Origin: an alpha proteobacterium SCGC AAA240-E13
Lineage (GTDB): Bacteria > Pseudomonadota > Alphaproteobacteria > Pelagibacterales > Pelagibacteraceae
Length of the DNA: 64,000 nucleotides
Assembly (NCBI GenBank): GCA_000504625.1
Contig: AZHR01000004.1
Span: 15,863 to 79,862 of the forward strand
Reading direction: 5' to 3'
The stretch's first letter is position 1. Every line of letters begins with the position of its first letter. This document shows positions 37,689-64,000 of this stretch, in pieces. The position numbers were made by a program, and so were the translations under genes. The notes beneath the pieces were generated by a model. That model saw only the letters and a program-made list of their open reading frames with translations. It searched no databases and was not told the DNA's origin.

Positions 37689-38504
37689 TTATTTAATAAA
37701 AATTGAGCATATAACTCTATCAATAAAATATTTTGTATATTTTAAAAGAAAAATCATTGAGACCAATAAAATGTTTTGCCCATTGTCTATTCTAATTTTA
37801 ACAGTTTCGGAAAGATAATCCATAAAGGATATTTTGGATGATATTCCTCCCCTCCTAAACTTACCAAATATCTCATTTTTTTTAGTAGCCATTCCATTTA
37901 ATTTGTGTTTTACGATCATTCTATAAAAAAGATCATAATCAGCTGAATATTTATATTTAATATTATAAAGGCCAATTTTTTTTTGTGCCTTTTTTTTTAT
38001 AAAAAAACCAATTGAATGAGTTGTATAAAAACCAAAACTCCAATGTATTTTCCAAGGATTATATCCGTGCAAAAGTTTATATTTAATTACACTCCCGAAA
38101 AGGAAATCTATATATTTATTTCGATTAAAATAATTTGCAGCTATTTTGAGAGCTCGCTTATAATAAATATCATCAGAATTAAGAATTGCAATTATTGAAC
38201 CATGACTTAATTTTATTCCTTTATTCATAGCATCGTAAATACCTTTATCTTTTTCTGATATCCAATAATTTATTTTTGAATCATTTTTTTTTAAAATATC
38301 TATTGTTCCATCAGTTGATTTTCCATCAACAATTATTAGTTCATAATTTTTATAACTCTGATCTATAACGCTTTGAATAGATTGTTTTAAAAATTTTTTA
38401 TTATTTAATACAACTGTAATTATTGATATTAAAGGTAAGTTTTTTTTATCTTTTTTAAAATAACCTTTTTTTCTCAACCCACCTGAAATTTTTTTCCGTT
38501 TCAT
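37689..38504 (-). CDS. glycosyltransferase family 2
   Basis: ISIITVVLNN...SIQSVIDQSYKNYELIIVDGKSTDGT, and the DxD region NSDD. Confidence 0.85.
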   Translation of the reverse strand: MKRKKISGGLRKKGYFKKDKKNLPLISIITVVLNNKKFLKQSIQSVIDQSYKNYELIIVDGKSTDGTIDILKKNDSKINYWISEKDKGIYDAMNKGIKLSHGSIIAILNSDDIYYKRALKIAANYFNRNKYIDFLFGSVIKYKLLHGYNPWKIHWSFGFYTTHSIGFFIKKKAQKKIGLYNIKYKYSADYDLFYRMIVKHKLNGMATKKNEIFGKFRRGGISSKISFMDYLSETVKIRIDNGQNILLVSMIFLLKYTKYFIDRVICSIFIK

Positions 38505-38508
38505 TTTT

Positions 38509-39594
38509 TTAAAAATACTTTGATATTATTTGAAAATATCTATCGCAGTTAGTTTTATAATCAAATCTTATAAGACTTTTATATCCCCTATTAATTTTAA
38601 GTTTTGTTTCTCGGGATTTTTTATTAAAATTTTTTAGCAAATAAAATAATTGATTATAATCCCCAACTTTAAATAAACCTCCATACAAACCACGTTTGAG
38701 TATTTCTCTTGGTCCGGTGGGACAATCAGAAGAGATAATGTATTTTTTAAGATATAAGGTTTCGATCAAAACATTTGGTAATCCTTCAAAAATAGAAGAT
38801 AAAACAAACACATCAGAAGTTTTTACATAAGACTCCGGATTTTTTTGATAGCCAATTAATTTTACAATTTTTTGTAATTCATTTTGCAATATATATTTTC
38901 TTAACTTTTTTTCTCTGTACCCTCTGCCTATAATGGCCAGTTTACATTTTTTAAACTCACTTAGTTTTTTTACAGCTTTCAATAAAGTGAAATGATCTTT
39001 TTGATCAGTCAACCTAGCTACATTAATTATTTTTAAAGATTTTTTATCACTAAAAAAAGAGAAATTTACTTTTTTAACTTTTTTTCCAACAAAAGGATTG
39101 TAGATAACGTTGGGTATTATAGAAAAAAATTTTCTAAATTTTTTCTTAAAATCAAAACTGTTAACAATTATTTCATCAGCTAGATTAAAAAAAAACTTGA
39201 AAATTATTTTATAAATACCATTTTTTATATATTTTTCAGGACTTGTATTTGATCTAATTATGGTTTTTTTTTTAAAAATTAGCCCTAGCATTATTGCAAT
39301 GATATTCGATTGGAATGACAAAATTACAACATCTTCATTACGACAATTTTTGAAAAATAGAAAAATCGCAACTAACGTTTTTATTAATCTTGAATTTTTT
39401 ATACTTTTTTTATTTTTTACAGATATAATTTTTATCTTTTCATCAAAAAATCTTCTTTTGTTATTTGATGCTGTAAGAACTTTTATGGGTATATTTTTTC
39501 TTGCAAGATAGTTTGCTATTAAATATAAATTTTTTTCAACTCCAGCATTTTCTATAGATGGAATAAATATAATAAGAGATCTTTTTTTTTTCAT
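38509..39594 (-). CDS. glycosyltransferase family 4 (GT-B)
   Basis: C-terminal EGLPNVLIE motif (the E-x7-E region) and GT-B length. Confidence 0.8.
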   Translation of the reverse strand: MKKKRSLIIFIPSIENAGVEKNLYLIANYLARKNIPIKVLTASNNKRRFFDEKIKIISVKNKKSIKNSRLIKTLVAIFLFFKNCRNEDVVILSFQSNIIAIMLGLIFKKKTIIRSNTSPEKYIKNGIYKIIFKFFFNLADEIIVNSFDFKKKFRKFFSIIPNVIYNPFVGKKVKKVNFSFFSDKKSLKIINVARLTDQKDHFTLLKAVKKLSEFKKCKLAIIGRGYREKKLRKYILQNELQKIVKLIGYQKNPESYVKTSDVFVLSSIFEGLPNVLIETLYLKKYIISSDCPTGPREILKRGLYGGLFKVGDYNQLFYLLKNFNKKSRETKLKINRGYKSLIRFDYKTNCDRYFQIISKYF

Positions 39595-39619
39595 ATTAAT
39601 AAAAACTTAGATTAACAAT

Positions 39620-40849
39620 TTAAGAGTAATAATTAAATGGATCTAAAACTTTGTTTTTATTTTTAGATGATATAACTTCCTTAAAAATTTTTTTAAATAT
39701 ATTGTGATACGAAAGAAATAAAATCACATCAAATTCTATATTTTTATTTATTTTATTATAAATTCCATACATTTTTTTTGTTTTTTCTTGAGCAAAAGGA
39801 TCACATCCACTTATTTTTTTATTATTTTTTTTAATTTTTTTAAATATTTTAAAACCTAACGAATTCCTCATGTCTGCCACCCCGGCTTTATAAGTTAATC
39901 CAACGATCATAATTTTAGAATTTCTTAAAGACTTATTTTTTTTTTTTAAAAAATCATTTAATTCTTTAATTATATAATTTAACATTCCATCATTAATTTT
40001 TCTCCCAGCTAAAGCAACTTCGGTTTTAAAATTATTTTTATTTGCTATACTTGACAAATAATATGGATCTACAGGCAAGCAATGTCCTCCTACTAACCCT
40101 GGTCTAAAATTCAAAAAATTCCATTTAGATTTAGCTAATCTAACAACTTCGCTGAAACTTATTTTCAACCTCTTGCATGTAAGTAAAATTTCATTCATCA
40201 GAGCAATATTAATATCTCTCTGAATATTTTCTATGACTTTAGCAGTTTCTGCTGCTTCAATATTGTTAGATTTAATTAATTGCTTCGATATTTTATTATA
40301 AATTTTAGTAATCTTTTTTATTACAATTTTATTTTTTGTTTCAAATGCTATAATTTTCTTAATACCTAACAAAGTATATTTTTTGTCTCCAGGATTTATT
40401 CTTTCAGGACTATAACCAATGAAAAAATCTTTATTATTTTTTAAATTAGTTTTTTTTTCAAAATAATTTTTACAATCTTTAGTCACACCTGGAAAAACAG
40501 TTGACTCAATAAATATAATATCATTCTTTTTTAATACTTTTGAAACTGTTTTAACAGCATTTTTTAATGATCTTAAATCGGGCATTTTATTTTTGTGTAT
40601 TGGTGTTGGCACACAAAGAATAAAAAAATTACAGTTTTTTATATCATTTATTTTATTTGTAAAAATAATTTTTTCAAAATTGTTAAATGTCTTAGGCTTA
40701 TACTCTTTATTAATATCAATTTTTTTATTTAGATTTTTTATTCTTTCTTCATCTTTGTCAAATCCATAAGTTAAAAAATTGTTAGCGAGTCTTAGAGCGA
40801 TTGGTAAACCCACATATCCTAATCCGATAACGCAGGGAATTATTTTCAT
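39620..40849 (-). CDS. nucleotide-sugar 6-dehydrogenase (UDP-glucose/GDP-mannose dehydrogenase family, TviB/WbpO-like)
   Basis: N-terminal NAD fold VIGLGYVGLPIAL and catalytic Cys context LVGGHCLPVDPYY. Confidence 0.85.
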   Translation of the reverse strand: MKIIPCVIGLGYVGLPIALRLANNFLTYGFDKDEERIKNLNKKIDINKEYKPKTFNNFEKIIFTNKINDIKNCNFFILCVPTPIHKNKMPDLRSLKNAVKTVSKVLKKNDIIFIESTVFPGVTKDCKNYFEKKTNLKNNKDFFIGYSPERINPGDKKYTLLGIKKIIAFETKNKIVIKKITKIYNKISKQLIKSNNIEAAETAKVIENIQRDINIALMNEILLTCKRLKISFSEVVRLAKSKWNFLNFRPGLVGGHCLPVDPYYLSSIANKNNFKTEVALAGRKINDGMLNYIIKELNDFLKKKNKSLRNSKIMIVGLTYKAGVADMRNSLGFKIFKKIKKNNKKISGCDPFAQEKTKKMYGIYNKINKNIEFDVILFLSYHNIFKKIFKEVISSKNKNKVLDPFNYYS

Positions 40850-40900: not shown

Positions 40901-41866
40901 ATGAAAATTTTAATAACAGGATGTTGTGGGTTTATTGGGTTTAATTTTGCAAACTTTCTAGCTAAATCAAATAAAAAGGTAAGAATTTTAGGAATTGATA
41001 ATTTAGATAATTACTATTCAGTTAGTCTTAAGCAGGATAGATTAAAAAAGTTATTAAAATATAAAAATTTTCATTTTTTTAAATTTAATTTAGAGAATTT
41101 TGAATTATTAAAAAAGATATTCCAAAAAAATAAATTTGATTATATATTTCATCTGGCTGCTCAAGCTGGTGTAAGATATTCGATTATTAATCCAAAAAAA
41201 TACATAAATTCAAATGTAAATGGATTTTTTAATATCATTGAACTTTCAAGGTATAATAATGTCAAAAAAATTTTTTACGCTTCTTCAAGTTCGGTATACG
41301 GTGATAGTAAAGTTTTTCCTTTACATGAAAAAAATATAATTAAACCTAAAAACGTATATAGTTTGACAAAAAAATTTAATGAAGAATTAGCAGAAATTTT
41401 TTCAAAATTTTATAACATGAAATTTGTAGGACTTAGATTTTTTACTGTTTATGGTGAATGGGGAAGACCTGATATGATGATATTTAAATATATCAAAGCT
41501 TCAATTATGAAAAAAATATTCTATTTAAATAATTATGGAAACCACACAAGAGATTTTACTTATATTGATGATGTAATTAAAATAATGCATAAATTAATAC
41601 ATTTACGGATTAAGAAAAATCATGAAATTTTTAATATATGTTCTAACAAACCAATTAAATTAATTAAAATAGTTAACTTGTTAAATAATTTAACAAAAAC
41701 TCCAAAGATAAAAAAAATTGCATTTCAAAAAGCTGATGTATTAAAAACACATGGTTCAAATAAAAAAATAATAAAATATTTAAAATATAGTAAATTTACA
41801 AACATAGACAAAGGTTTATTAAATACTTGCAAGTGGTATAGCAATTATTTAAAAAATAAATTATAA
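40901..41866 (+). CDS. NAD-dependent epimerase, UDP-glucuronate 4-epimerase-like
   Basis: ITGCCGFIGFN, DNLDNYYSVSLKQDRL, SSSSVYG, a YSLTK catalytic Tyr-x3-Lys, and RFFTVYGEWGRPDM. Confidence 0.85.
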   Translation: MKILITGCCGFIGFNFANFLAKSNKKVRILGIDNLDNYYSVSLKQDRLKKLLKYKNFHFFKFNLENFELLKKIFQKNKFDYIFHLAAQAGVRYSIINPKKYINSNVNGFFNIIELSRYNNVKKIFYASSSSVYGDSKVFPLHEKNIIKPKNVYSLTKKFNEELAEIFSKFYNMKFVGLRFFTVYGEWGRPDMMIFKYIKASIMKKIFYLNNYGNHTRDFTYIDDVIKIMHKLIHLRIKKNHEIFNICSNKPIKLIKIVNLLNNLTKTPKIKKIAFQKADVLKTHGSNKKIIKYLKYSKFTNIDKGLLNTCKWYSNYLKNKL

Positions 41867-42949
41867 ATTTTCAAATATTTTTTGATATTCATCAACACAA
41901 TTGGCCACATTAAATTTTGTTATTTTATTTTTCGCATAGTTTAATTTTTTTTGGAATTTTTTTTGTTTATTTAAAAATTTCTTTATTAAATTTGCTAGAT
42001 TTAAATGATCACCGGCATCAAAAAAATAACCTCCCTTTCCTCGTGAAAGTATTTCACTAACTCCTCCATGGCTTCTAGAACAAATAACTGGAATATTATA
42101 ACTTATTGCTTCAATTACTGAATTGGGAAAACCTTCAAAAAACGAACAGTTAATGTATAGATCAGCCTTTTTGAAATATTTACTGGTATCTTTGTAATAA
42201 CCTCTTAGATAGATTTTATCTCCTAGCTTAAGTTGCCTTATTAATTTATTTAAATTATTCTTTTGGTTTCCATCCCCAATTATTTCAAGAACAAATGTTC
42301 TATCTTTTATTAAATTTACCGCATGAATTAAAGTTTCGTATCCTTTTTCTTTTGATAATCTTCCTACACTTAATATTTTTTTAATAATATTTTTTTTTTT
42401 TACTTTCTTGCTAAATTTTTTGAATGCTGGAGAATAGATTGTTTTTACATTTGATTTACATAAAGTTTTTAAATGTTCACTTGATTTTTTGGAATTAGTA
42501 ATAATTACATTTGCTTTTTTGTACAAAAATTTTATTAGAAATTTTATAGTCTTTTTCTTTATAAAATCTATTGGGTTAAAATAAATATCAAGTTCTTTTA
42601 TTGCAGTTCTTTCTACAAGAATAATTTTCAAATTAGAATATGTGCGTAATGCCAAAATAGTTATAACGTTTGCATAATTTATATTTGATACAAATATGCT
42701 ATTATTATGAATATTTAATTTATTTATTATCTTTCTAAGTGCAAATATTGAATAAATTGCTCTGCTTGTTTTTAATTCATAAAACTTTTTTACATATTTC
42801 TTTAGTTCTTTTTTGTAGCTACATGGTCCGATTGAAATAATATACAAATCATATTTTGATTTATCAAATTTTTTGCACATTCTGGAAATAGCATTCCCGG
42901 CACCACCAGGTATAAAAACTGGTAAAAAAAATAATATGTTTTTTTTCAT
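41861..42949 (-). CDS. glycosyltransferase family 4 (GT-B)
   Basis: GRLSKEKGY and FEGFPNSVIEA motifs. Confidence 0.8.
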   Translation of the reverse strand: MKKNILFFLPVFIPGGAGNAISRMCKKFDKSKYDLYIISIGPCSYKKELKKYVKKFYELKTSRAIYSIFALRKIINKLNIHNNSIFVSNINYANVITILALRTYSNLKIILVERTAIKELDIYFNPIDFIKKKTIKFLIKFLYKKANVIITNSKKSSEHLKTLCKSNVKTIYSPAFKKFSKKVKKKNIIKKILSVGRLSKEKGYETLIHAVNLIKDRTFVLEIIGDGNQKNNLNKLIRQLKLGDKIYLRGYYKDTSKYFKKADLYINCSFFEGFPNSVIEAISYNIPVICSRSHGGVSEILSRGKGGYFFDAGDHLNLANLIKKFLNKQKKFQKKLNYAKNKITKFNVANCVDEYQKIFENL

Positions 42950-43019: not shown

Positions 43020-44291
43020 ATGGCAAATATTTTAAATAAAAAGATTATAGTTGATTATTTCAATAAGAATAAATTAAAAATTTTTATTGCAATATTATTT
43101 GTTGTAATTATCAATATTTTATTAAAATCAGGAATATTATATAATTTTATTTTTGGATCTACTGAAGTATTTGGAGACCACAAATATAATATTAGTTTGC
43201 TAAAGTGTCACTATCTTGGTTTTGATGTTTACCATAATAATACTTGTACTTCCGCAATATGTAATTTTGGACGAATTTTTTTACTAATACCTTTTAATTT
43301 AAAATTAGAACATTTTTACTTAGATTACCTCCCATATATTGTAATAATATTATTTTCATTTTCTACAATTTTTATTATTAGTCCAAAAAATAAAATCCAG
43401 TATGTAGTGCTATTTTTATCAATTTTTAACCCTTCAACTTTATTGTTAATAGAACGAATTAATTTTGATATATTTATATTTTTAATATTAATTTTTATTA
43501 TCTTTAATAGAATTTATTTTATAAATTGGATTTTGATTTCTTTTGTTACTTTATCAAAGTTTTATCCTGCCATTTTAGGAATAAATATTTTATTAGAAAA
43601 TAAAAATAGAAAACTTTTAGAATTAGTATACATAATTTTGGGTATTTCTTTGTTATCAACAATTTACATATATTTTAATTATGAAAAATACCTATTGGGT
43701 CTTCAATTATTAGATCCTGCTGGATATCTTTTTTTGTTTTCATTAAAAACGATTCCAAAAATAATGAAATATTTATTTAGTTGGAATTATATTGTTCTTA
43801 TTATGTGTTTTTTAATTTTGTTCGCTTTATTAACTATTAATTTTTATAAACTTATAAAAAAAAATAAATTTGATAATTTGATTGATATATATTCATCAGA
43901 AACTAAATTATTTATATTAGGCGGTTATATTTTATTAATTTGTTATCTGATTTTTTCTAATTATGTTTATAGAGAAGTATTTTTAATTACATTGTTGCCA
44001 TTATTATTTAAGCTTCATAACATTAAGAACATAAAATTTTTAACTTTTTTTGTATATTTTATTTTTTGTAGATACGTATTTTTATTTATTTATGGATATA
44101 TAAATGCATATGAACTTTATCATGTTACATATATTAATGATGTTAGATATTTTTCAAAAGAATTTTTATTTATTACAACTCTTAAAGGAATTATAGATAT
44201 TGTTTTAATGTCTTTTATTGGATCTGTATTATTTTTAATTAGTAAAAAAATAATCTATCAGTTTAAAGCTAAACATTTTGAACAAATATAA
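43020..44291 (+). CDS. polytopic membrane protein, GT87/DUF2029- or polymerase-like (function uncertain)
   Basis: At least 10 predicted TM segments. IERINFDIFIFLIL resembles the GT-C / DUF2029 loop motif. There is no soluble domain. Confidence 0.4.
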   Translation: MANILNKKIIVDYFNKNKLKIFIAILFVVIINILLKSGILYNFIFGSTEVFGDHKYNISLLKCHYLGFDVYHNNTCTSAICNFGRIFLLIPFNLKLEHFYLDYLPYIVIILFSFSTIFIISPKNKIQYVVLFLSIFNPSTLLLIERINFDIFIFLILIFIIFNRIYFINWILISFVTLSKFYPAILGINILLENKNRKLLELVYIILGISLLSTIYIYFNYEKYLLGLQLLDPAGYLFLFSLKTIPKIMKYLFSWNYIVLIMCFLILFALLTINFYKLIKKNKFDNLIDIYSSETKLFILGGYILLICYLIFSNYVYREVFLITLLPLLFKLHNIKNIKFLTFFVYFIFCRYVFLFIYGYINAYELYHVTYINDVRYFSKEFLFITTLKGIIDIVLMSFIGSVLFLISKKIIYQFKAKHFEQI

Positions 44292-45083: not shown

Positions 45084-45758
45084 ATGAAAGAACTTACCCT
45101 TATAATTCCTGCAAAAAATGAGGCTGAATGCATACCAACAGTTTTAAATGAATTAAAAAATTTTGATTGCAAAAAAATTATTATTATTCCTAAAACTGAC
45201 TTAAATACACAAAACGCCGCAAAAAAGTTTGATTGTAAAATTTTTATACAAGACCAAGATAACGATGGATTTGGTGGAGCTTTAATACGAGGTATTAAAG
45301 AAGTCGAAACTAACTATCTATGTATATTTAATGCCGATGGTTCATTTAATCCAAAATATCTTAAAGGTATGCTTAATGAGTTATCAAACAACTGCGATTT
45401 TATATTTAATAGTAGATATGAAAATGATGGAGGAAGTGATGATGATACTTTGTTGACTTACATTGGCAATAAAGTATTTACATTTATTTGTAATTTATTG
45501 TTTAGACTAAATATTTCTGATGTATTATTTACTTTTGTTATGGGTAAAACCTCAGCTTTTAAATCTCTGAACCTTAAAAGGAATGATTTTACATTTTGTA
45601 TTGAATTACCGGTCTTAGCTAAGTTGAAAAAGTATAAACTAATTTCAAAACCTAGTTTTGAGAGATCAAGATTGTCAGGTAAAAAAAAAGTAAATGAAAT
45701 TAAAGATGGATTTTTAATATTATTATGTATATTGACAATGTTTATACTTAGAAAATGA
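45084..45758 (+). CDS. GT2, polyprenol-phosphate glycosyltransferase-like (DPM1/ArnC/GtrB type)
   Basis: [27 protein letters not shown], and a C-terminal TM helix. Confidence 0.7.
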
Positions 45759-54795: not shown

Positions 54796-54832
54796 ATGAG
54801 TTTGGGTATTTCAATTAAAGAAATATTTGTAA

Positions 54833-55561: not shown

Positions 55562-55563
55562 AA

Positions 55564-58496: not shown

Positions 58497-60110
58497 TTGA
58501 ATATGCTAAAGATTAAACACGTAATTTATATATTTATAATTTTGATTGTTTCTTATCTGTTTTCCTTGTTTTTTATTAATTTCAATATGCATCCTTATGA
58601 AGATGCCGCAATGTCAATGAGATATGCTCAGAATTTTGCCGATGGACATGGTATTGTTTGGAATATAGGTGAAGAACCACTTGCTGGTTCAAATGATTTT
58701 CTATTTATAATTTTTGTTGGAGCATTAAAATTCGTTGGAATTTCTATAGAATCTGCTGTTTTATATCTTAATATTTTTGCTTTTTTGTCTACATTAATTA
58801 TTCTTTATTATTCTTTAAGAAATATTTATGACGCTGGAACTTTAGCTACAATTTTTGTTTGTTTATATTTTATATTCAGTCCTATTCTATTTATTAGTTC
58901 CGCATACTTTGGCACCATATTATTAACTCTTTTTGTAATTTTATCTTGGTCAACTGCTTTGCATATCATTATAAAAAAAAGAAGAGAGATAAAATATTAC
59001 TGGCTGTTTTCCATCGCAACTTTATGTATGGGATTAGCACGATCGGAAGGCTGTATAATAGCTTTGTTTATGTTGATTGCTGTTCTTTTTTCTCTAGACA
59101 AAAAAGAGAAAAATAAAATACTTTCAATTTTTTTTTTCGTATTTCTAATTTTTGGAGGAACATACTTGGCATGGAGATGGAGTTATTTTGGACAACCATT
59201 TCCAAGTCCATTTTACATTAGAGGAGGAGGCAATTTTTATTTTGATAGTCTTCAAACTTCATTGCATAATGTCAGAAAATTGAGTTGGCCATTTCTTATA
59301 AGTATATTTATTGGTTTTCTCTTTCAAGATATTAGAAAGCTATCCTTGCAGTTATTATTGCCGATATTTGGAGCTTCTGCTATGTGGATGATATTGTCTA
59401 ATTGTGAAATCTGTCACGGTATGAACTTTGGAGGACGCTATCAGTTTCCTATATTAGTAATTGTCCTTCTTTCTTGGTATCCATCAGCTATCAAAATCTG
59501 GAATCATTATATCAAACCACGAGTAAATTTATTAAAGAAACAAAGTAGATTGCTGTTATCTATTTTATATAGTTTTTTTCTTATATTTATTTTGGCAAAG
59601 GAAATAGAAAGTTCACGAAAATGGACTAGACATATACATATAAAGGACGGTCGATATGATGTTGCCGTTATGCTAAAAAAATACTCTAAAAAAAAATATA
59701 CTATGGCTGTCACCGAAGCTGGCTTATTACCCTTATATTCAAAATGGAAAGCTATTGATACATACGGATACAATGATTCATGGATTGCTAAAAACAAAGG
59801 TATCACAAAAGAATATCTTAGCAAGATTTCTCCTGAAATGATTATGTGGCACGAATATTTTTCTCCTTTATCGCCCCCAAAGAAAGAAAGAGTGAACAAT
59901 TCTTGGTTTAAAATGGTAAAAGTATTACAAGAATATGCAGAAGAAAATAATTATATATTGGTAGCAATTTATGGAGTTCAAAACGATAATACCCATTATT
60001 ACTACATAAAATCAGATCTTCACGAAAAAGATGAAATCATCTCAACAATCAGAGAAATGGATTATTACTGGTATGAATCAGGAGAAATAAGCAATAACTA
60101 TAATGAGTAG
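58497..60110 (+). CDS. polytopic membrane glycosyltransferase-like protein (GT-C fold candidate) with a C-terminal soluble domain
   Basis: The first-loop motif HPYEDAAMSMRYAQNFADGHGIVWNIGEEPLAGSNDF resembles arabinofuranosyl/GT-C-type transferases. About 11 TM segments. The ATG at 58503 is the more likely start than the TTG at 58497. Confidence 0.5.
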   Translation: MNMLKIKHVIYIFIILIVSYLFSLFFINFNMHPYEDAAMSMRYAQNFADGHGIVWNIGEEPLAGSNDFLFIIFVGALKFVGISIESAVLYLNIFAFLSTLIILYYSLRNIYDAGTLATIFVCLYFIFSPILFISSAYFGTILLTLFVILSWSTALHIIIKKRREIKYYWLFSIATLCMGLARSEGCIIALFMLIAVLFSLDKKEKNKILSIFFFVFLIFGGTYLAWRWSYFGQPFPSPFYIRGGGNFYFDSLQTSLHNVRKLSWPFLISIFIGFLFQDIRKLSLQLLLPIFGASAMWMILSNCEICHGMNFGGRYQFPILVIVLLSWYPSAIKIWNHYIKPRVNLLKKQSRLLLSILYSFFLIFILAKEIESSRKWTRHIHIKDGRYDVAVMLKKYSKKKYTMAVTEAGLLPLYSKWKAIDTYGYNDSWIAKNKGITKEYLSKISPEMIMWHEYFSPLSPPKKERVNNSWFKMVKVLQEYAEENNYILVAIYGVQNDNTHYYYIKSDLHEKDEIISTIREMDYYWYESGEISNNYNE

Positions 60111-60768
60111 CAATTATTTAAAATTTTTAAAATTGGTTTTTAAAAAAAATAGTTTATTAAGAATTTTACAAATTTATGAATGTTTAAATATCAATCTTCA
60201 TGGTACCACTATTGAGTTTGGGGTAACAAATAATAAAAATAAAACTTTCTCTAATTTTGTGAAAGGTACATCAAAATTTCATTATTCCAATAAAATAAGC
60301 AATAAAAAACTGAATATATTTTATTCTGATTTAACAAAAAAACTGAAAATTTCCTCAAAAAAATACGACAATGTTCTATTTTTTAATGTCCTAGAACATT
60401 TACCAGAATACGAATTGTCTTTTTTGGAAATTTACAGAATTATAAAAAAAGGAGGGAAGTTTATTGGTTCAGTTCCGTTTATTTATCAAATTCATGCTGC
60501 GCCAAACGATTATTTTAGATTTAGTAAGCAATTTTTTGAGCTAAATTTAAAAAAATATCATTTTAAACAAGTAAAAATTAAATCTATGGGATTTGGTCCC
60601 TTTACGGCCAGTTATTCACTTCTCCATGCATATTTAAGATATTTGCCTTTTTTTAGTCAGTTATGTTTATTATTAGCTTATATTCTAGATAGCATTATAC
60701 AGATTTTCGTTAAAACGGATCTTAAAGAGATATTTCCTATCGGTTATTTTTTTACAGCAAAAAAATAA
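60103..60768 (+). CDS. class I SAM-dependent methyltransferase (Methyltransf_11-like)
   Basis: YDNVLFFNVLEHLPE...IIKKGGKFIGSVPF. The glycine-rich motif I is degenerate. Confidence 0.7.
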   Translation: MSSNYLKFLKLVFKKNSLLRILQIYECLNINLHGTTIEFGVTNNKNKTFSNFVKGTSKFHYSNKISNKKLNIFYSDLTKKLKISSKKYDNVLFFNVLEHLPEYELSFLEIYRIIKKGGKFIGSVPFIYQIHAAPNDYFRFSKQFFELNLKKYHFKQVKIKSMGFGPFTASYSLLHAYLRYLPFFSQLCLLLAYILDSIIQIFVKTDLKEIFPIGYFFTAKK

Positions 60769-60806: not shown

Positions 60807-61970
60807 ATGCAAATGAAAATTTTTTATTGGTCCCCTTTTATATCAAAAGTTGCCACTGTTACTTCGGTAATAAAATCTGCAGAGTCCATATTAAAATATT
60901 CTAAAAAAGAAAATAATATCAAGGTAGCTATCATTGATGCAATTGGAGAATGGAAAAATTATAAAAGATCAATTGATCCAAAAATTGAAATTATAAATTT
61001 AAATAAAAAAAATATCACGGAACATTTGCCAAAAGGAAGTTTTTTAAAAAGTAGATTATCTTACATTTTAATTTTCTTTCTGTCTTTTTTTAAGTTATTA
61101 GATTTAATAAATAAAAAAAAACCTGATTACTTAATTACTCATCTACTTACTTCGCTTCCAATTTTTCTAACATTGATTTCTAAAAATAAAACTAGAATTG
61201 TTCTTAGAATTTCTGGATTGCCAAAATTAAATTTCTTCCGCTACATTTTTTGGAAGTCATTTTCAAGAAATATTTATAGAATTACGTGTCCGACAGTGGC
61301 AACTTTTGAATACCTAAAAAAAAAAAATATCTTTGATGAAAATAAAATCTTTGTTTTAAGAGATCCGGTCATTCAATTACATGAATTTTTAAAAAAAAAA
61401 AATGAGAAAATTAAAGATTTAAAAAAAGAAAAAAAAGATACTATTATTGGAATTGGCAGATTAACAAAGCAGAAAAATTTGCTTTTATTGATTAAGGCTT
61501 TCAAAAAAATATTATTTAAATATCCAAACTATCACCTGGTTTTGTTAGGAGAGGGTGAGCAAAAAAATTTATTGATAAAAGAATCAAAAAAATTAGAAAT
61601 TCATGGCAAAATATCATTCTTGGGTTATCAAAGTAATGTATATAAGTACTTGCTAAATTCAGATTGTTTTATATTAACATCCTTATGGGAAGACCCTGGA
61701 TTTGTGATTCTTGAGGCAGCTTTAAGTAATACTTTTATTATATCAAGCAATTGTCCTAATGGTCCTAGTGAAATTTTATCAAATGGAAAAAATGGATTAT
61801 TATTTCAAAACAACAACTTATCCGATCTCCTAAATAAATTTGACGAATTTAAAAACATGAGCAGAACTGAATTAAATAAAAAAAAAATTCTTGCCAAAAA
61901 AAAAACAAAAATATTTACTCAATTTGCTCATTTTAGTTCATTAGAAAAAATTATTAACTTAAATTTATGA
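60807..61970 (+). CDS. glycosyltransferase family 4 (GT-B)
   Basis: GRLTKQKN and WEDPGFVILEA motifs. Confidence 0.8.
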   Translation: MQMKIFYWSPFISKVATVTSVIKSAESILKYSKKENNIKVAIIDAIGEWKNYKRSIDPKIEIINLNKKNITEHLPKGSFLKSRLSYILIFFLSFFKLLDLINKKKPDYLITHLLTSLPIFLTLISKNKTRIVLRISGLPKLNFFRYIFWKSFSRNIYRITCPTVATFEYLKKKNIFDENKIFVLRDPVIQLHEFLKKKNEKIKDLKKEKKDTIIGIGRLTKQKNLLLLIKAFKKILFKYPNYHLVLLGEGEQKNLLIKESKKLEIHGKISFLGYQSNVYKYLLNSDCFILTSLWEDPGFVILEAALSNTFIISSNCPNGPSEILSNGKNGLLFQNNNLSDLLNKFDEFKNMSRTELNKKKILAKKKTKIFTQFAHFSSLEKIINLNL

Positions 61971-62884
61971 CACTTGTTATTTGCATATGTACTTATAATA
62001 GAAATCTTAATTTAATTAGATGTTTAAATAGTATAAAAAAATTATATTTTGTAGCAAATATTAAAATTAAAATTATAGTTGTTGATAATTCAAATAAGTA
62101 TACATCATTTAAATTAGTTAAAAAATTAAAGAAATCATTTAAATATAAAATAATACAATTGCACGAAAAAAGAAGAGGAATTGTTTATGCAAGAAATAAA
62201 TGTTTACATGAGGCAAAAAAAATAAATCCTAAATTTATATGTTTTTTTGATGATGATTGTATCGTAGATCGTTTTTGGCTTAAAAATGTATTTAAAGTAA
62301 TAAAACTTACTAATGCCAAGATTGTTACCGGCCCTCAATTGTCTTTAAAAAAAAAATCTTTGAATGACTCTAAATTAATTAATTATTCTCAATTTTTTGA
62401 GAAGAATCATAAAGGGAATTTAAAAAGAGTTAATTGGGCTGCAAGTAATAATGTTTTTTTAGAATATGATATTGTGACAAAACATAAGCTGTTTTTTGAC
62501 AAGTCTCTAAATAAGTTTGGGATTGGCGAAGATCAATTATTTTTTTTAAAACTTAATAATTATGGATACAAAATATATTGGAGTAAGAAAATAAAAGTAT
62601 TTGAGAGTGTTCATAAACATAGACTAAATTTAAAATGGTTAATTAGGAGAAGCTTTAGATTAGGAGTTCTTGGACATTACATAGATATCAATATACATGG
62701 AAAAGCAATGGGTTATGTAATGAATTATTTAAAATGTATTTATTATTTTATAAAAAGCCTATGTTACATTTTTCTTCTTTTTAATAATAAATTTATGTAC
62801 GACGCATTGAATTATTTCTCTAGATTTTGTGGAAGACTGATTGGTCCATTTGTTTTTAAAAAAATAGATTATTTTAGAAAATGA
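61967..62884 (+). CDS. glycosyltransferase family 2
   Basis: LVICICTYNR...IIVVDNS and FFDDDC (DxD). Confidence 0.8.
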   Translation: MTLVICICTYNRNLNLIRCLNSIKKLYFVANIKIKIIVVDNSNKYTSFKLVKKLKKSFKYKIIQLHEKRRGIVYARNKCLHEAKKINPKFICFFDDDCIVDRFWLKNVFKVIKLTNAKIVTGPQLSLKKKSLNDSKLINYSQFFEKNHKGNLKRVNWAASNNVFLEYDIVTKHKLFFDKSLNKFGIGEDQLFFLKLNNYGYKIYWSKKIKVFESVHKHRLNLKWLIRRSFRLGVLGHYIDINIHGKAMGYVMNYLKCIYYFIKSLCYIFLLFNNKFMYDALNYFSRFCGRLIGPFVFKKIDYFRK

Positions 62885-64000
62885 ATATTAATTCTAGAAA
62901 TATTTATATAATTTATTTATTATTATATTTTTCTTTACTAATTGGCTTTTACTTTAATGAAGATTTTGGATCTGGATATAAAACTGATTATTTTTTAGAT
63001 AAAAAATTTGTTTTTTTGTTTAAGGAAAATATTCTAAAAACTTTATTAAATTTTGATAAATTTACAACAAGTCATTCACCAATTTATTATATTTTTTTTG
63101 TATTATTAGAAAAAATCTCATTTAATGAAATAACATCGAGATTAATTAATTTGCATCTTTCTTTGTTAATACCTTTTTTTTTTTATTTGTGCTTAAAGTT
63201 AAAATATAAATTTCAGATAGAAGATCCTAAAAGTTTAATACCCTGTTTAATATTTTTGTCTCCATACTTTCGATCTAGTGCAATTTGGGTAGGCAGCGAA
63301 AACTTATCTCTTTTATTTGTGGTAATTTGTTTTTATTTTTTTTTAAAATATGAATCAAATAAAGAAAAAAATTTATCTTATATTTTATTGAATGTATTCT
63401 TTTTAGCTTGTGCTTCTTATTTTAGACCAATTTACGCTTTATTTAGTATTTATTTTTTTTTAAGATTTTATTTAGATTTAAAATTTTCAAACAAATTATT
63501 ATATTATATTTTACTAAATATATTTTTAAGTTTTCCTGCATTATATTATATATTTATTCTCAATGTAAATTTCATGCTAATACATATTAGTCAACCAATA
63601 ACTGTATCTAGATTTGTCAATCAGTTTTCTGTATGTATTTCGATTATTTGGTTTTACTCAATTCCTTTTTTATTGGCTAATATAAAGGAAAACTTTAAAT
63701 TATCAATATTTAAAATTGAAAATATTTTTGTATCTATAATTTTTACATATCTACTTATATTTTATTTTAATTATGAATTAACTCATGGGGGAGGTATTTT
63801 CTATAAAACTTCTATACTATTTTTCGGCAATAATTATTTGTTTTATTTTTTTTCTTTAATAAGTTTAAATTTGTTACTTGCAACTTTTTCTTTAAATTTA
63901 AATTTTAAAGACAAAATTTCCGATTTTGTTTTATTTTTCACGCTTATTCTTTTTGAACCGGATATAGCTTTTTATCATGAAACCTATGACCCGCTATTGT
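62881..64000 (+). CDS. polytopic membrane protein, GT-C/ArnT-PMT-like; 3' end lies outside the window
   Basis: Own translation from ATG 62881 (MNINSRNIYIIYLLLYFSLLIGFYFNEDFGSGYKTDYF...) is open to the window end. It has an early acidic loop (NEDFG) and many TM segments. Its ATG overlaps the preceding TGA (ATGA). Confidence 0.5.
   Translation, partial: MNINSRNIYIIYLLLYFSLLIGFYFNEDFGSGYKTDYFLDKKFVFLFKENILKTLLNFDKFTTSHSPIYYIFFVLLEKISFNEITSRLINLHLSLLIPFFFYLCLKLKYKFQIEDPKSLIPCLIFLSPYFRSSAIWVGSENLSLLFVVICFYFFLKYESNKEKNLSYILLNVFFLACASYFRPIYALFSIYFFLRFYLDLKFSNKLLYYILLNIFLSFPALYYIFILNVNFMLIHISQPITVSRFVNQFSVCISIIWFYSIPFLLANIKENFKLSIFKIENIFVSIIFTYLLIFYFNYELTHGGGIFYKTSILFFGNNYLFYFFSLISLNLLLATFSLNLNFKDKISDFVLFFTLILFEPDIAFYHETYDPLL

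What the first reader, a model, noticed from the sequence alone, without database searches (positions are those of the whole stretch)
37689..64000. Envelope-glycan island of at least 26 kb built around polyprenyl-phosphate-sugar synthases and many GT-C-like membrane proteins, with no recognisable Wzx/Wzy/Wzz or ABC exporter
**Cytoplasmic machinery.** The island encodes four GT2 (37689, 44305, 61967, plus the fusion), three GT4 (38509, 41861, 60807), a WecA/MraY-type initiating transferase and Gmd. It also encodes a dehydrogenase with a UDP-GlcA-4-epimerase-like partner and two methyltransferases.

**Periplasmic-face candidates.** There are three DPM1/ArnC/GtrB-like GT2 domains (45084-45758, 49606-50373, and the C-terminal half of 56859-58313). 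There are also six or seven large polytopic membrane proteins with extracytoplasmic loops or domains: 43020, 47849, 50394, 55564, 58497, 62881, and possibly the anchored 54833.

**Precedents.** This pairing is the signature of periplasmic-face glycosylation from polyprenyl-P-sugar donors. Examples are ArnC/ArnT, GtrB/GtrC, Rhizobium RgtE with RgtA-D plus the LpsL epimerase, and mycobacterial Emb/Aft.

**Why it matters.** Such a density of putative GT-C enzymes in a streamlined genome is unusual. I recognised no conventional flippase, polymerase, chain-length regulator or ABC exporter. SAR11 genomes are known to carry a hypervariable envelope-glycosylation region (HVR2). The chemistry and assembly route of its product, and which acceptor is decorated (lipid A-core, a polysaccharide, or proteins), remain essentially uncharacterised.
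Basis: partly seen in the sequence, partly recalled or inferred. Interest (0 to 1): 0.65.

Follow-up and report, generated by a model that had tools for sequence, protein, structure and literature searches.

The report
SAR11 surface-glycan island with GT-C enzymes

Summary
The gene content is real. Positions 37689-64000 are a low-GC (23.3% vs 29.4%) Pelagibacter glycan island. It runs on to about 66557 (28.9 kb) and ends at a tRNA-Val.

All three short GT2 domains rank nearest to polyprenyl-phosphate sugar synthases (DPM synthase, GtrB, ArnC, PpgS). The classical GT2s do not.

GT-C evidence is uneven:
- 50394 (DUF6311): strong. A confident model matches AglB, PglB, DPY19 and EmbC, with a CBM-like domain.
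- 43020: moderate. It is a remote GT87/PimE relative, and its invariant Lys aligns with PimE K195.
- 55564: moderate. It has only GT-C top hits, all weak, and sits beside lipid-sugar synthases of two unrelated families in other genomes.
- 58497: weak.
- 47849 and 62881: untested.

"No Wzy" is a window-edge artefact, because a Wzy_C gene follows 62881. No Wzx, ABC, GtrA or SMR flippase was found.

The layout is typical of SAR11: a core kit recurs in over 60 species, with swappable cassettes. I rate it a new variant of known three-component periplasmic glycosylation, of moderate interest.

The parts
37689..38504 (-). Classical GT2 glycosyltransferase (GT2a); left-most island gene
   Evidence: Pfam Glycos_transf_2 1e-24. 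NCBIfam best hits are WcaE and TuaG, not a polyprenyl-P synthase.
38509..39594 (-). GT4 glycosyltransferase (GT4a)
   Evidence: Pfam Glycos_transf_1 4e-27.
39620..40849 (-). UDP-glucose/GDP-mannose dehydrogenase family enzyme (makes a uronic-acid nucleotide sugar)
   Evidence: All three UDPG_MGDP_dh domains hit.
40901..41866 (+). SDR nucleotide-sugar epimerase/dehydratase
   Evidence: Pfam Epimerase 3e-48. NCBIfam hits are generic (RmlB, GalE, TviC-like), all below cut-off.
41861..42949 (-). GT4 glycosyltransferase (GT4b)
   Evidence: Pfam Glycos_transf_1 3e-35.
43020..44291 (+). m43020: polytopic membrane protein, remote GT87/PimE-like GT-C candidate
   Evidence: No direct Pfam hit. It has 538 relatives, and 13 of 90 aligned family members hit Pfam GT87. 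D53 (first loop) and K180 are invariant. K180 aligns with PimE K195 and N148 with PimE Q163, at E=0.17 (PMC12041525).
44305..45048 (+). Classical GT2 (GT2b), TuaG-like; part of the SAR11 core kit
   Evidence: Pfam GT2 7e-31. NCBIfam TuaG 6.5e-54. Present in 32 of 64 related loci.
45084..45758 (+). PPS1: short DPM1-type GT2, putative polyprenyl-phosphate sugar synthase with a C-terminal TM anchor
   Evidence: The best PDB hit is P. furiosus Dol-P-Man synthase 5MLZ, 6e-6. NCBIfam ranks AglJ 7e-23, Dol-P-hexose transferase and PpgS. The motif N-A-D-G-S is present in 30 of 31 family sequences. It is adjacent to m47849, m62881 or Wzy_C homologs in 24 of 35 loci.
45755..46819 (+). GDP-mannose 4,6-dehydratase (Gmd)
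   Evidence: Pfam GDP_Man_Dehyd 2.6e-140. Its partner Fcl lies at window-equivalent 65586-66557.
46828..47865 (+). WecA/MraY-family polyprenyl-phosphate HexNAc-1-P transferase (initiating enzyme)
   Evidence: Pfam Glycos_transf_4 7e-15. NCBIfam ECA_wecA 1.7e-14.
47849..49561 (+). m47849: 570-aa polytopic protein, the most conserved membrane protein of the SAR11 kit; function unproven (GT-C-like enzyme, or polymerase)
   Evidence: NCBIfam LIC_10190 family 1e-21, below cut-off. Found in 65 loci, nearly all Pelagibacteraceae. H114-D115-D116-F117, R215, C320/C329 and R444-Y-G-G are invariant. No Pfam or PDB link. Faint hhalign links to the m62881 family (27%) and DUF6311 (21%), and none to Wzy_C.
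49606..50373 (+). PPS2: GtrB/ArnC-type GT2, putative polyprenyl-phosphate sugar synthase
   Evidence: PDB best hits are GtrB 5EKP 4e-9, ArnC 9HWJ 2e-7 and DPMS 6e-7. NCBIfam ranks PgfS, ArnC and PpgS among its hits. D-L-D motif.
50394..52526 (-). m50394: DUF6311 protein, a GT-C-fold glycosyltransferase with a C-terminal periplasmic alpha/beta domain and a CBM-like beta-sandwich
   Evidence: Pfam DUF6311 3e-28. AF2 pLDDT 91, pTM 0.89. Foldseek: AglB 6.6e-4 (prob 1.0), PglB 1.9e-3, DPY19 3e-3 (TM 0.41-0.45), EmbC 8e-3, and CBM36/35/6 for the C-terminal sandwich. D56 is invariant in the first loop.
52572..53237 (+). SAM methyltransferase (MT1); travels with DUF6311 in related loci
   Evidence: Pfam Methyltransf_11 2e-12. 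Synteny in L005 and L007.
53386..54795 (+).
   Evidence: Pfam GMC_oxred_C 1e-17 plus an N-terminal FAD motif. The same gene order occurs in L035 and L037.
54833..55561 (+). m54833: single N-terminal TM anchor plus a roughly 210-aa extracytoplasmic domain; obligate partner of m55564
   Evidence: No Pfam or NCBIfam hit. Adjacent to m55564 in all 5 scanned loci that hold m55564 (L005-L069), and also in L002.
55564..56871 (+). m55564: polytopic protein of an unannotated marine family; probable new GT-C-like glycosyltransferase
   Evidence: 455 homologs, none with a Pfam domain. AF2 pLDDT 84.6, pTM 0.90. Seven of the top 9 Foldseek PDB hits are GT-C enzymes, but the best E is 0.45. G119-W-D121-A, H153 and E171-Y-x-G-R175 are invariant. 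In 4 of 6 loci its neighbour is a polyprenyl-P-sugar synthase, drawn from two unrelated families.
56859..58313 (-). NT-PPS3: fusion of a sugar-1-phosphate nucleotidylyltransferase (res 10-200) with a DPM1/ArnC-type GT2 (res 253-456)
   Evidence: Pfam NTP_transf_3 plus Glycos_transf_2. NCBIfam AglJ 5e-26, PpgS 3e-19, Dol-P-hexose transferase 2e-18. PDB ArnC 8VXH 2e-6 for the C-terminal half. E-A-D motif.
58497..60110 (+). m58497: polytopic protein with a roughly 165-aa C-terminal soluble domain; weak GT-C candidate
   Evidence: NCBIfam LA_3751/LA_3752 putative glycosyltransferase 4e-9, far below cut-off. An acidic E34-D35 motif sits in a K/R-poor first loop. No relatives were retrieved.
60103..60768 (+). 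SAM methyltransferase (MT2)
   Evidence: Pfam Methyltransf_11 2e-6. 78-84% identical in L002 and L003.
60807..61970 (+). GT4 glycosyltransferase (GT4c)
   Evidence: Pfam Glycos_transf_1 9e-35.
61967..62884 (+). Classical GT2 (GT2c), HpsE-like
   Evidence: Pfam GT2 3e-18. NCBIfam HpsE 4e-23.
62881..64000 (+). m62881: polytopic protein cut by the window end (complete 418 aa, ends at window-equivalent 64137); core-kit member next to Wzy_C; function unproven
   Evidence: Full length taken from L001. Present in 21 of 64 loci, usually next to PPS1 or Wzy_C. D36, S66-P67, S127-P128, W136 and G303-305 are invariant. No Pfam or PDB link. It probably corresponds to the 'unknown, 11 TM' gene next to the 'o-antigen polymerase' in HTCC1062 HVR2.

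Best explanation
This is the SAR11 O-chain/HVR2-type envelope-glycan island. It most likely works as a hybrid pathway.

Cytoplasmic face (inferred from enzyme families):
- The WecA-like enzyme starts a glycan on undecaprenyl phosphate.
- Three GT4 and three classical GT2 enzymes extend it. Their donors include GDP-fucose (Gmd + Fcl) and a uronic-acid nucleotide sugar (dehydrogenase + epimerase).
- Two methyltransferases decorate it.

Lipid-monophosphate donors (supported by homology):
- In parallel, three DPM1/GtrB/ArnC-type GT2 domains load single sugars onto polyprenyl phosphate.
- One of these is fused to its own nucleotidyltransferase.

Periplasmic face:
- After flipping, GT-C-fold membrane enzymes transfer those sugars onto the glycan or its acceptor.
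- This is shown by fold for DUF6311/50394. It is probable for 43020 and for the 54833+55564 pair. It is only possible for 47849, 62881 and 58497.
- The Wzy_C-family protein just beyond the window then polymerises the product or ligates it to its final acceptor.

In effect the island holds several Gtr/Arn-like 'synthase + GT-C' modules plugged into one O-chain cluster. Some of them are exchangeable cassettes. The flippase or flippases are not identified.
For: Taxon and island:
- Relatives are Pelagibacter.
- GC is 23.3% against 29.4%, matching the published 23.8% against 29.4% for SAR11 O-chain clusters.

Cytoplasmic enzymes.

Synthases:
- Best solved relatives are DPMS, GtrB and ArnC.
- NCBIfam ranking separates them from the three classical GT2s.

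GT-C evidence:
- The DUF6311 model (pLDDT 91) matches AglB, PglB, DPY19 and EmbC at prob 0.87-1.0, and carries a CBM-like domain. GT136, Emb and AftD have the same kind of architecture (PMC11127046).
- Members of the m43020 family hit GT87, and its invariant K180 and conserved N148 align with the essential K195 and Q163 of PimE.
- For the m55564 model (pTM 0.90), 7 of the top 9 PDB hits are GT-C enzymes, and none is a flippase, WaaL or SEDS protein.

Genomic coupling:
- PPS1 abuts m47849, m62881 or Wzy_C in 24 of 35 loci.
- The m54833-m55564 cassette abuts a DPM1-type GT2 in the window, L002 and L053, and a UbiA/decaprenyl-phosphate-phosphoribosyltransferase-like gene in L035. The donor synthase has therefore been replaced by a non-homologous one beside the same membrane protein.
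- Each polytopic protein has a conserved acidic motif just after a TM helix.

Wzy_C.
Against: - There is no biochemical evidence.
- All three synthase domains score below NCBIfam curated cut-offs.
- PPS1 has N-A-D instead of D-x-D, although this is fixed across the family.
- The Foldseek hits for m55564 are not significant (best E 0.45, TM 0.40), and its conserved loop follows TM4, not TM1.
- The m43020-PimE link is transitive and weak (E 0.17).
- m47849 and m62881 have no fold evidence, no Pfam or PDB link, and only faint profile similarity to each other and to DUF6311. They could be a polymerase or a flippase.
- m58497 rests on a 36-bit hit.
- No GtrA, SMR, MATE, Wzx or ABC flippase is present, so the 'three-component' logic is incomplete here.
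- The acceptor is unknown.
Confidence: 0.55

Rival explanations
1. This is a conventional Wzx/Wzy-dependent O-antigen cluster. The unclassified core-kit proteins (m47849, m62881, perhaps m58497) are highly divergent Wzx flippase, Wzy polymerase or chain-length factors that HMMs miss. Only one or two Gtr-like side-branch modules (DUF6311, m43020, m55564) use polyprenyl-P-sugars.
For: - A Wzy_C gene sits next to m62881.
- HTCC1062's HVR2 was annotated with an 'o-antigen polymerase' (10 TM) beside an 'unknown' (11 TM), plus two O-antigen export genes.
- Wzy and Wzx proteins are notoriously divergent (general knowledge).
- m47849 and m62881 have no fold evidence.
- WecA-type initiation and cytoplasmic GT2/GT4 enzymes fit this route.
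- An ABC exporter occurs in another SAR11 island, L063.
Against: - No Pfam Wzx, Wzy, Wzz or MOP hit even at E<=10.
- The m47849 and m62881 profiles do not resemble the SAR11 Wzy_C family (hhalign <=5%), but faintly resemble each other and DUF6311.
- Both carry invariant acidic/aromatic motifs, and m47849 also carries conserved loop Cys pairs. These are more typical of enzymes than of flippases.
- PPS1 is their preferred immediate neighbour.
Confidence: 0.25
2. The island is mainly a protein-glycosylation system rather than an LPS system. The Wzy_C protein is a PglL-type O-oligosaccharyltransferase, and some GT-C proteins glycosylate periplasmic or surface proteins directly from polyprenyl-P-sugars, in the manner of PMT, AglJ or Pgf.
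For: - The top NCBIfam names for the synthases include the archaeal S-layer glycoprotein enzyme AglJ and the streptococcal protein-glycosylation enzyme PgfS.
- The best Foldseek hits of DUF6311 are the oligosaccharyltransferases AglB and PglB and the C-mannosyltransferase DPY19.
- Pfam Wzy_C also covers PglL-type enzymes (general knowledge).
Against: - All name matches are far below family cut-offs.
- The CBM-like domain of DUF6311 suggests a polysaccharide acceptor, as in Emb, AftD and GT136.
- The literature treats the region as an LPS/O-chain cluster.
- No acceptor protein is evident.
Confidence: 0.1
3. The short GT2 domains are ordinary cytoplasmic transferases acting on the growing Und-PP-glycan, not polyprenyl-monophosphate sugar synthases. 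Any GT-C-like proteins use Und-PP-linked oligosaccharide donors (an OST, ligase or polymerase-like role).
For: - All scores are below equivalog cut-offs.
- PPS1 lacks the first Asp of the DxD motif.
- PPS2 and PPS3 have no clear TM anchor.
- AglJ-type enzymes are close relatives of ordinary GT2s (general knowledge).
Against: - The best solved relatives are consistently DPMS, GtrB and ArnC for all three domains, while the island's other GT2s rank with WcaE, TuaG and HpsE.
- Their length (about 220-255 aa) matches short PpgS/DPM1-type enzymes.
- In L035 the same cassette sits next to a UbiA/DPPRS-like lipid-phosphate sugar synthase instead.
Confidence: 0.1

Closest known systems
Three-component periplasmic glycosylation systems: GtrA/GtrB/Gtr* of Shigella and Salmonella, and the Citrobacter PPPRS + MATE + GT136 system (Kelly et al. 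2024, PMC11127046)
   Same: - A polyprenyl-phosphate sugar synthase is encoded beside a GT-C-fold transferase inside an O-antigen locus.
- The GT-C enzyme can carry a CBM-like periplasmic domain, as DUF6311/50394 does here.
- The modules act as serotype-diversifying add-ons.
   Different: - No GtrA, SMR or MATE flippase is recognisable.
- Three synthases and up to six candidate transferases sit in one island.
- The transferase families belong to no CAZy or Pfam GT-C family, apart from a remote GT87 link for 43020.
- One synthase is fused to a nucleotidyltransferase.
- One transferase comes with an obligate single-pass partner (54833).
ArnC/ArnT (+ArnE/F) lipid A aminoarabinose pathway
   Same: PPS2 and PPS3 have ArnC among their best solved relatives. 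The logic is the same: a GT2 loads Und-P and a GT-C transfers in the periplasm.
   Different: No ArnT (PMT_2/GT83) HMM hit, no ArnA/B/D genes and no ArnE/F. The acceptor is not known to be lipid A.
Mycobacterial Ppm1/PimE and DPPRS-DprE1/E2-Emb/Aft arabinosylation
   Same: - The m43020 family is linked to GT87, and its invariant Lys aligns with PimE K195.
- AftB and AftA are the top hits for m55564.
- EmbC matches DUF6311.
- In L035 the m55564 cassette sits with a DPPRS-like UbiA enzyme and an FAD oxidoreductase.
   Different: - The similarities are remote (E 0.17-0.45).
- The FAD enzyme is GMC-type, not DprE1 (VAO-type, from general knowledge).
- This is a Gram-negative LPS context.
- There is no DPPRS in this window.
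SAR11 HVR2 / O-chain biosynthetic cluster (Wilhelm 2007 PMC2217521; Grote 2012 PMC3448164; Haro-Moreno 2025 PMC11898729; 'Pelagibacter, resolved' bioRxiv 2026)
   Same: - Low-GC, genome-specific island of glycosyltransferases, epimerases, methyltransferases and 'unknown membrane proteins', with an O-antigen polymerase/ligase.
- The GC values match the published ones.
   Different: - Here the island is flanked by a B12-riboswitch/TonB operon and tRNA-Val, and no rRNA is in view. This resembles the relocated Ib.4 version.
- In the passages I read or searched, those papers do not assign the membrane proteins or discuss the assembly route.

Membership tests
Polyprenyl-phosphate glycosyltransferases of GT2 (DPM1/Ppm1/GtrB/ArnC/PpgS type) | GT-A GT2 catalytic domain | tested here: met
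   Pfam Glycos_transf_2 for 45084 (2e-17), 49606 (6e-19) and 56859 residues 255-380 (9e-14).
Polyprenyl-phosphate glycosyltransferases of GT2 (DPM1/Ppm1/GtrB/ArnC/PpgS type) | Closer to characterised lipid-phosphate sugar synthases than to other GT2s | tested here: met
   PDB best hits are DPMS 5MLZ, GtrB 5EKP and ArnC 8VXH/9HWJ. NCBIfam top names are AglJ, PpgS, Dol-P-hexose transferase, PgfS and ArnC. The island's other GT2s rank with WcaE, TuaG and HpsE.
Polyprenyl-phosphate glycosyltransferases of GT2 (DPM1/Ppm1/GtrB/ArnC/PpgS type) | Score above a curated family threshold | tested here: not met
   All NCBIfam hits are far below the equivalog cut-offs, for example 81-92 bits against 325 for AglJ.
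Polyprenyl-phosphate glycosyltransferases of GT2 (DPM1/Ppm1/GtrB/ArnC/PpgS type) | DxD metal/nucleotide-binding motif | tested here: inconclusive
   PPS2 has D-L-D and PPS3 has E-A-D. PPS1 has N-A-D, present in 30 of 31 family sequences. The second Asp is always kept.
Polyprenyl-phosphate glycosyltransferases of GT2 (DPM1/Ppm1/GtrB/ArnC/PpgS type) | Membrane-association element (C-terminal TM or amphipathic interface helices) | tested here: inconclusive
   PPS1 ends in a hydrophobic helix ([14 protein letters not shown]). PPS2 and PPS3 end in amphipathic, K-rich hydrophobic segments. No structure was predicted.
Polyprenyl-phosphate glycosyltransferases of GT2 (DPM1/Ppm1/GtrB/ArnC/PpgS type) | Forms polyprenyl-monophosphate sugar from NDP-sugar | not testable with these tools
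   Needs a biochemical assay.
GT-C superfamily glycosyltransferases | Polytopic membrane domain (about 7-13 TM helices) | tested here: met
   Hydropathy shows 7-10 or more hydrophobic stretches in all six proteins. The AF2 helices for 55564 and 50394 agree.
GT-C superfamily glycosyltransferases | Structural similarity to solved GT-C enzymes | tested here: inconclusive
   - Met for 50394: AglB, PglB, DPY19 and EmbC at E 7e-4 to 8e-3, prob 0.87-1.0.
- Suggestive only for 55564: 7 of the top 9 hits are GT-C enzymes, best E 0.45.
GT-C superfamily glycosyltransferases | Conserved acidic residue in an extracytoplasmic loop at the start of the core (first loop in GT-C_A) | tested here: inconclusive
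   - Invariant D56 in 50394, D53 in 43020 and D36 in 62881 (with near-invariant E27) lie in the first loop. E34-D35 of 58497 also lies in the first loop, but its conservation could not be assessed because no family alignment was obtained.
- In 47849 (D115-D116) and 55564 (D121) the motif follows TM4.
- Sidedness is inferred only from charge bias and Cys pairs.
GT-C superfamily glycosyltransferases | Sequence membership in a recognised GT-C family (Pfam/CAZy) | tested here: not met
   No window protein hits a GT-C Pfam model, even at E<=10. The only link is indirect: 13 of 90 relatives of 43020 hit GT87.
GT-C superfamily glycosyltransferases | Genomic coupling to a lipid-phosphate sugar donor synthase | tested here: met
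   - In the window, 47849 is followed by 49606, which is convergent with 50394. 55564 is convergent with 56859, which is divergent from 58497.
- Across genomes, PPS1 is adjacent to kit membrane proteins in 24 of 35 loci. The m55564 cassette is adjacent to a DPM1-type or DPPRS-type synthase in 4 of 6 loci.
Gtr-type three-component modification system | Dedicated small flippase (GtrA, SMR/ArnEF or MATE) | tested here: not met
   No such Pfam hit. No credible small hydrophobic ORF in 37600-64000 or in L001.
Wzx (MOP) flippase / Wzz / ABC (Wzm-Wzt, PglK) exporters | HMM match to Polysacc_synt/MOP, Wzz, ABC_tran or ABC2_membrane | tested here: not met
   - None in any island ORF.
- No ORF with both the Walker A and ABC signature motifs, and no polytopic ORF, in window 1-37 kb.
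- An ABC exporter does occur in another SAR11 island, L063.
Wzy_C (O-antigen ligase/polymerase, PF04932) | Pfam Wzy_C above the gathering threshold, with a large periplasmic loop late in the protein | tested here: met
   - Met only by the gene just outside the window (L001 2274-3593, window-equivalent 64169-65488): 58.2 bits against a cut-off of 31.7, with a 99-aa loop at residues 254-352.
- None of the in-window proteins matches this Pfam model. The m43020, m47849, m55564, m62881 and DUF6311 family profiles and the single sequence of 58497 do not resemble the SAR11 Wzy_C profile; 54833 was not included in that comparison.
SAR11 HVR2 / O-chain biosynthetic cluster | Pelagibacterales genome, GC dip, glycan-gene content, and flanking 23S/5S rRNA | tested here: inconclusive
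   - Taxon, GC dip (23.3% against 29.4%) and gene content are met.
- Kit homologs lie at about 160-180 kb in several complete Pelagibacter genomes.
- No rRNA is in the window or L001.
- The flanks are tRNA-Met and tRNA-Val, as reported for the relocated Ib.4 cluster.

The most novel reading that the evidence does not exclude
SAR11 may assemble or diversify most of its surface glycan on the periplasmic face. It would use a modular, cassette-exchangeable set of previously unrecognised GT-C-type families (m47849, m62881, m55564+m54833, DUF6311, a GT87-like family). Each would be fed by its own polyprenyl-phosphate sugar synthase. Lipid-linked intermediates would be flipped by a non-canonical component, perhaps one of the conserved unknown membrane proteins, rather than by Wzx, ABC, GtrA or SMR proteins. 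That would be an assembly logic distinct from the two textbook O-antigen pathways, in the ocean's most abundant bacterium.
Probability: 0.15. Interest if true: 0.8.

Novelty: new variant of a known kind. Interest (0 to 1): 0.5.

Why it matters
SAR11 is the most abundant bacterial clade in the ocean. Its hypervariable surface-glycan island is the main locus of strain-level diversity and the presumed target of phage recognition. Yet neither the chemistry nor the assembly route of the product is known, and the island's membrane proteins have been listed as 'unknown' since 2007.

This analysis assigns some of those proteins to lipid-donor (GT-C) glycosyltransferases paired with dedicated polyprenyl-P-sugar synthases. 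It also identifies a conserved core kit and swappable cassettes. Together these give concrete, testable hypotheses:
- which genes create glycan variants;
- that diversification happens post-export;
- that a flippase is missing or non-canonical.

It also proposes a fold for Pfam DUF6311 and flags at least one unclassified candidate GT family (m55564, with partner m54833).

Tried and rejected
1. I concatenated two membrane proteins into one homolog-search query to save quota. The word pre-filter saturated and only 3 hits returned, so one search was wasted.
2. A single-sequence PDB search of all seven membrane proteins (concatenated) found nothing. Family-profile searches against PDB for m55564, DUF6311, m62881 and m47849 also found nothing meaningful. 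The m43020 profile gave one spurious hit to a designed TM protein and the weak PimE hit.
3. All-against-all BLASTP and hhalign among the membrane families showed no convincing paralogy. The best values were 27% and 21% probability. I therefore rejected the idea that they are one expanded family.
4. m58497 relatives: genome and metagenome pattern scans both failed, because the tool chose low-complexity peptide patterns.
5. PF26626, precomputed on two m47849 relatives, is not in the local Pfam copy, so its identity could not be read.
6. Pfam scans of every member of the m47849 and m62881 families gave only isolated chance hits.
7. I considered m54833 as a Wzz-like co-polymerase and rejected it. 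It has one TM rather than two, no Wzz HMM hit, and is always paired with m55564.
8. I considered short antisense hydrophobic ORFs as hidden GtrA/SMR flippases and rejected them. They are 58-83 aa and lie inside other genes on the opposite strand.
9. A viral structure library search for m55564 returned only uncharacterised Nitrosopumilus virus proteins.

Full report
**What is there.**
- Classical GT2: 37689, 44305, 61967.
- GT4: 38509, 41861, 60807.
- UDP-Glc/GDP-Man dehydrogenase family: 39620.
- SDR epimerase: 40901.
- Gmd: 45755 (468 bits).
- WecA/MraY-type transferase: 46828.
- Methyltransferases: 52572 and 60103.
- Short GT2s: 45084 and 49606.
- Nucleotidyltransferase + GT2 fusion: 56859-58313.

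Six polytopic proteins (43020, 47849, 50394, 55564, 58497, 62881) and one single-anchor protein (54833) fill the rest. Only 50394 has a Pfam match (DUF6311), even at E<=10. The region is 97% coding. GC is 23.3% against 29.4% upstream.

**True extent and context.** A public contig identical to the last 2105 bases of the window (L001) shows what follows.
- 62881 is a complete 418-aa protein.
- Next is a Wzy_C-family (O-antigen ligase/polymerase) gene at window-equivalent 64169-65488 (58 bits, cut-off 31.7).
- Then GDP-L-fucose synthase Fcl, the partner of Gmd (4e-114).
- Then tRNA-Val, after which GC returns to 29.6%.

The island therefore spans 37689 to about 66557 (28.9 kb). Its left edge abuts an AdoCbl riboswitch at 37537-37627 that controls a TonB-receptor operon. 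Upstream are housekeeping genes and a tRNA-Met.

Relatives are all Pelagibacter/Pelagibacteraceae. The published SAR11 O-chain cluster has the same GC contrast, 23.8% against 29.4%. That paper also describes a relocated version in genomospecies Ib.4 next to tRNA-Val and tRNA-Met. This fits the present flanks and the absence of rRNA in the window.

**The DPM1-like GT2 domains.** All three have a polyprenyl-phosphate glycosyltransferase as their best solved relative.

| Domain | Best solved relatives |
|---|---|
| 45084 | P. furiosus Dol-P-Man synthase (6e-6) |
| 49606 | GtrB (4e-9), then ArnC and DPMS |
| 56859, C-terminal half | ArnC (2e-6) |

- NCBIfam ranks AglJ, PpgS, Dol-P-hexose transferase, PgfS and ArnC on top.
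- The three classical GT2s rank with WcaE, TuaG and HpsE, so the split is real.
- All scores are below curated cut-offs.
- PPS1 has N-A-D rather than D-x-D, but this is fixed in 30 of 31 family sequences.
- The N-terminal half of the fusion is a sugar-1-phosphate nucleotidylyltransferase. This suggests channelling from sugar-1-P to NDP-sugar to lipid-P-sugar (inference).

**Are the membrane proteins GT-C?** Sequence methods alone fail. Neither single sequences nor family profiles match any solved GT-C, Wzx, WaaL or transporter. The families are not detectably related to one another. I had two structure predictions.

- *50394 (DUF6311).* The model has pLDDT 91 and pTM 0.89. Foldseek finds AglB (6.6e-4, prob 1.0), PglB, the C-mannosyltransferase DPY19 (TM 0.41-0.45) and EmbC. 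The C-terminal beta-sandwich matches CBM36, CBM35 and CBM6. This is a GT-C enzyme with a carbohydrate-binding-like periplasmic domain, an architecture known from Emb, AftD and GT136. D56 in the first loop is invariant.
- *55564.* It belongs to a family of 455 unannotated marine proteins. The model has pLDDT 84.6 and pTM 0.90. Seven of the nine best PDB matches are GT-C enzymes (AftB, AftA, STT3, AglB, DPY19, PglB), and none is a flippase or ligase. The scores are not significant, though (best E 0.45, TM 0.40). Its conserved loop (G-W-D121-A, H-P-H-L-G, E171-Y-x-G-R) follows the fourth helix.
- *43020.* The exhaustive search found 538 relatives. Thirteen of 90 aligned members hit Pfam GT87. The family profile aligns weakly (E 0.17) with the PimE structure 9DM5. 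That alignment places the family-invariant Lys of K-F-Y-P on PimE K195 and N148 on PimE Q163. Both residues are essential in PimE. The other invariant residue, D53, sits in the first loop, as the catalytic D58 of PimE does.
- *58497.* It has only a 36-bit match to a Leptospira 'putative glycosyltransferase' family, plus an E-D motif in its first loop.
- *47849 and 62881.* No fold evidence. Their profiles resemble each other faintly (27%, probably bringing N-E-D-F opposite H-D-D-F). 47849 resembles DUF6311 faintly (21%). Neither resembles the SAR11 Wzy_C family at 5% or less.

**Comparative context.** This is the strongest indirect evidence.
- The 47849 family occurs in 65 species-representative loci, nearly all Pelagibacteraceae. 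In several complete genomes it lies at about 160-180 kb.
- Mapping all island proteins onto these loci reveals a recurrent core kit: 47849, PPS1, WecA, GT2b, Gmd, Fcl, an epimerase, 62881, Wzy_C, GT4a, GT4c and GT2a.
- The remaining genes are rare: DUF6311 with MT1, the GMC-54833-55564 operon, NT-PPS3 and 43020. No 58497 homolog was found in these loci. These behave like exchangeable cassettes.
- PPS1 lies within 400 bp of 47849, 62881 or Wzy_C in 24 of 35 loci. A frequent arrangement is Wzy_C-PPS1-62881 divergent from 47849.
- 54833 and 55564 are adjacent in all 5 scanned loci that hold 55564, and also in L002.
- The cassette's neighbour is a DPM1-type GT2 in the window, L002 and L053. In L035 it is a UbiA-family gene whose best matches are decaprenyl-phosphate phosphoribosyltransferases (1.6e-37). 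The donor-synthase family changes while the membrane protein stays, which is what one expects if 55564 uses polyprenyl-phosphate sugars.

**Flippase and exporter.**
- No Wzx/MOP, Wzz, ABC, GtrA, SMR or MATE protein is detectable in the island, its extension or the rest of the window.
- Other SAR11 islands do carry exporters: an ABC half-transporter in L063 and two 'O-antigen export' genes in HTCC1062.
- The flippase here may be elsewhere in the genome, or it may be one of the unassigned membrane proteins.

**Mechanism proposed.**
- *Supported by analysis:* the enzyme families, one GT-C fold (from a confident predicted structure), and synteny.
- *Inferred:* WecA-initiated Und-PP-glycan assembly by cytoplasmic GT2/GT4 enzymes using GDP-Fuc and a uronic-acid donor. 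Then export, followed by periplasmic addition of single sugars by GT-C enzymes from Und-P-sugars made by PPS1-3. Last, polymerisation or ligation by the Wzy_C protein.
- The acceptor (O-chain, core or protein) is unknown.

**Comparison with what is known.**
- The logic is that of Gtr, Arn and GT136 three-component systems and of mycobacterial PPM/DPA-dependent GT-C enzymes.
- It differs in five ways: the number of modules, the lack of a recognisable flippase, transferase families outside any CAZy or Pfam GT-C family, the nucleotidyltransferase-synthase fusion, and a two-gene transferase cassette.
- HVR2 itself and its general content are long known.
- In the passages I read or searched, those papers leave the membrane proteins as 'unknown' and do not discuss Wzx, Wzy, flippases or GT-C. 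The 2025 paper has zero occurrences of those terms. A search for 'Pelagibacter' with 'GT-C' found nothing relevant.

**Verdict.**
- This is a typical SAR11 O-chain island, not an oddity of this genome.
- The assignment of its unknown membrane proteins to lipid-donor glycosyltransferases appears new.
- Novelty: new variant of a known kind. Interest: 0.5.

Noticed in passing
window 34961-37627 (-): An AdoCbl-II (B12) riboswitch at 37537-37627 (Rfam 51.6 bits) sits directly upstream of a TonB-dependent receptor (35494-37422) and a DUF6580/ECF-S-like membrane protein (34961-35491). This looks like a B12-regulated uptake operon forming the island's left border.
   Followed up: partly
window 27440-27516; L001 4686-4760 (window-equivalent 66581-66655): The region is bracketed by tRNA-Met(CAT) and tRNA-Val(GAC), and no rRNA gene is in view. 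A 2025 paper reports that SAR11 genomospecies Ib.4 has its O-chain cluster relocated next to tRNA-Val and tRNA-Met, so this genome may carry that relocated arrangement.
   Followed up: partly
window 56859-58313 (-): A single polypeptide fuses a sugar-1-phosphate nucleotidylyltransferase to a DPM1/ArnC-type GT2. This implies a self-contained route from sugar-1-P to polyprenyl-P-sugar. Only distant, GT2-only relatives (24-30% identity) were seen in five other loci.
   Followed up: partly
window 53386-56871 (+); L035 176-4500; L037 14-2138: The operon GMC FAD-oxidoreductase, then 54833, then 55564 recurs in other SAR11 genomes. In L035 it is convergent with a UbiA/decaprenyl-phosphate-phosphoribosyltransferase-like gene. 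That combination echoes the DPPRS + FAD-epimerase + GT-C logic of arabinan synthesis, although the FAD enzyme is of a different family.
   Followed up: partly
L063 1771-3498 (+): Another SAR11 island encodes an ABC_membrane + ABC_tran half-transporter (MsbA/PglK-like) near the 54833-55564 cassette. This is a candidate lipid-linked-glycan flippase, and this window lacks it.
   Followed up: no
window 45084-45758 and 30 homologs (L006-L067): The PPS1 family has N-A-D-G-S in place of the canonical D-x-D motif in 30 of 31 sequences. It is a conserved variant, not decay.
   Followed up: yes
window 55564-56871 (model mebc368f15d81): In the viral structure library, the best structural matches to 55564 are uncharacterised membrane proteins of Nitrosopumilus spindle-shaped viruses (TM 0.50/0.63, prob 1.0, E 0.03).
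   Followed up: no
window 47849-49561; P0001, P0002: Two metagenomic relatives of 47849 carry a precomputed Pfam label, PF26626, that is absent from the local Pfam copy. 47849 also matches the NCBIfam 'LIC_10190 family membrane protein' of Leptospira over its full length (77 bits, below the cut-off of 100). The family therefore reaches beyond SAR11.
   Followed up: partly
window 7328-17296 (-): By eye, the upstream flank looks like conserved housekeeping genes (FtsH-like with a Walker A motif, a TolQ/R/A/B-Pal-like run, then transketolase/GAPDH/PGK-like ORFs on the other strand). These were not scanned with HMMs.
   Followed up: no
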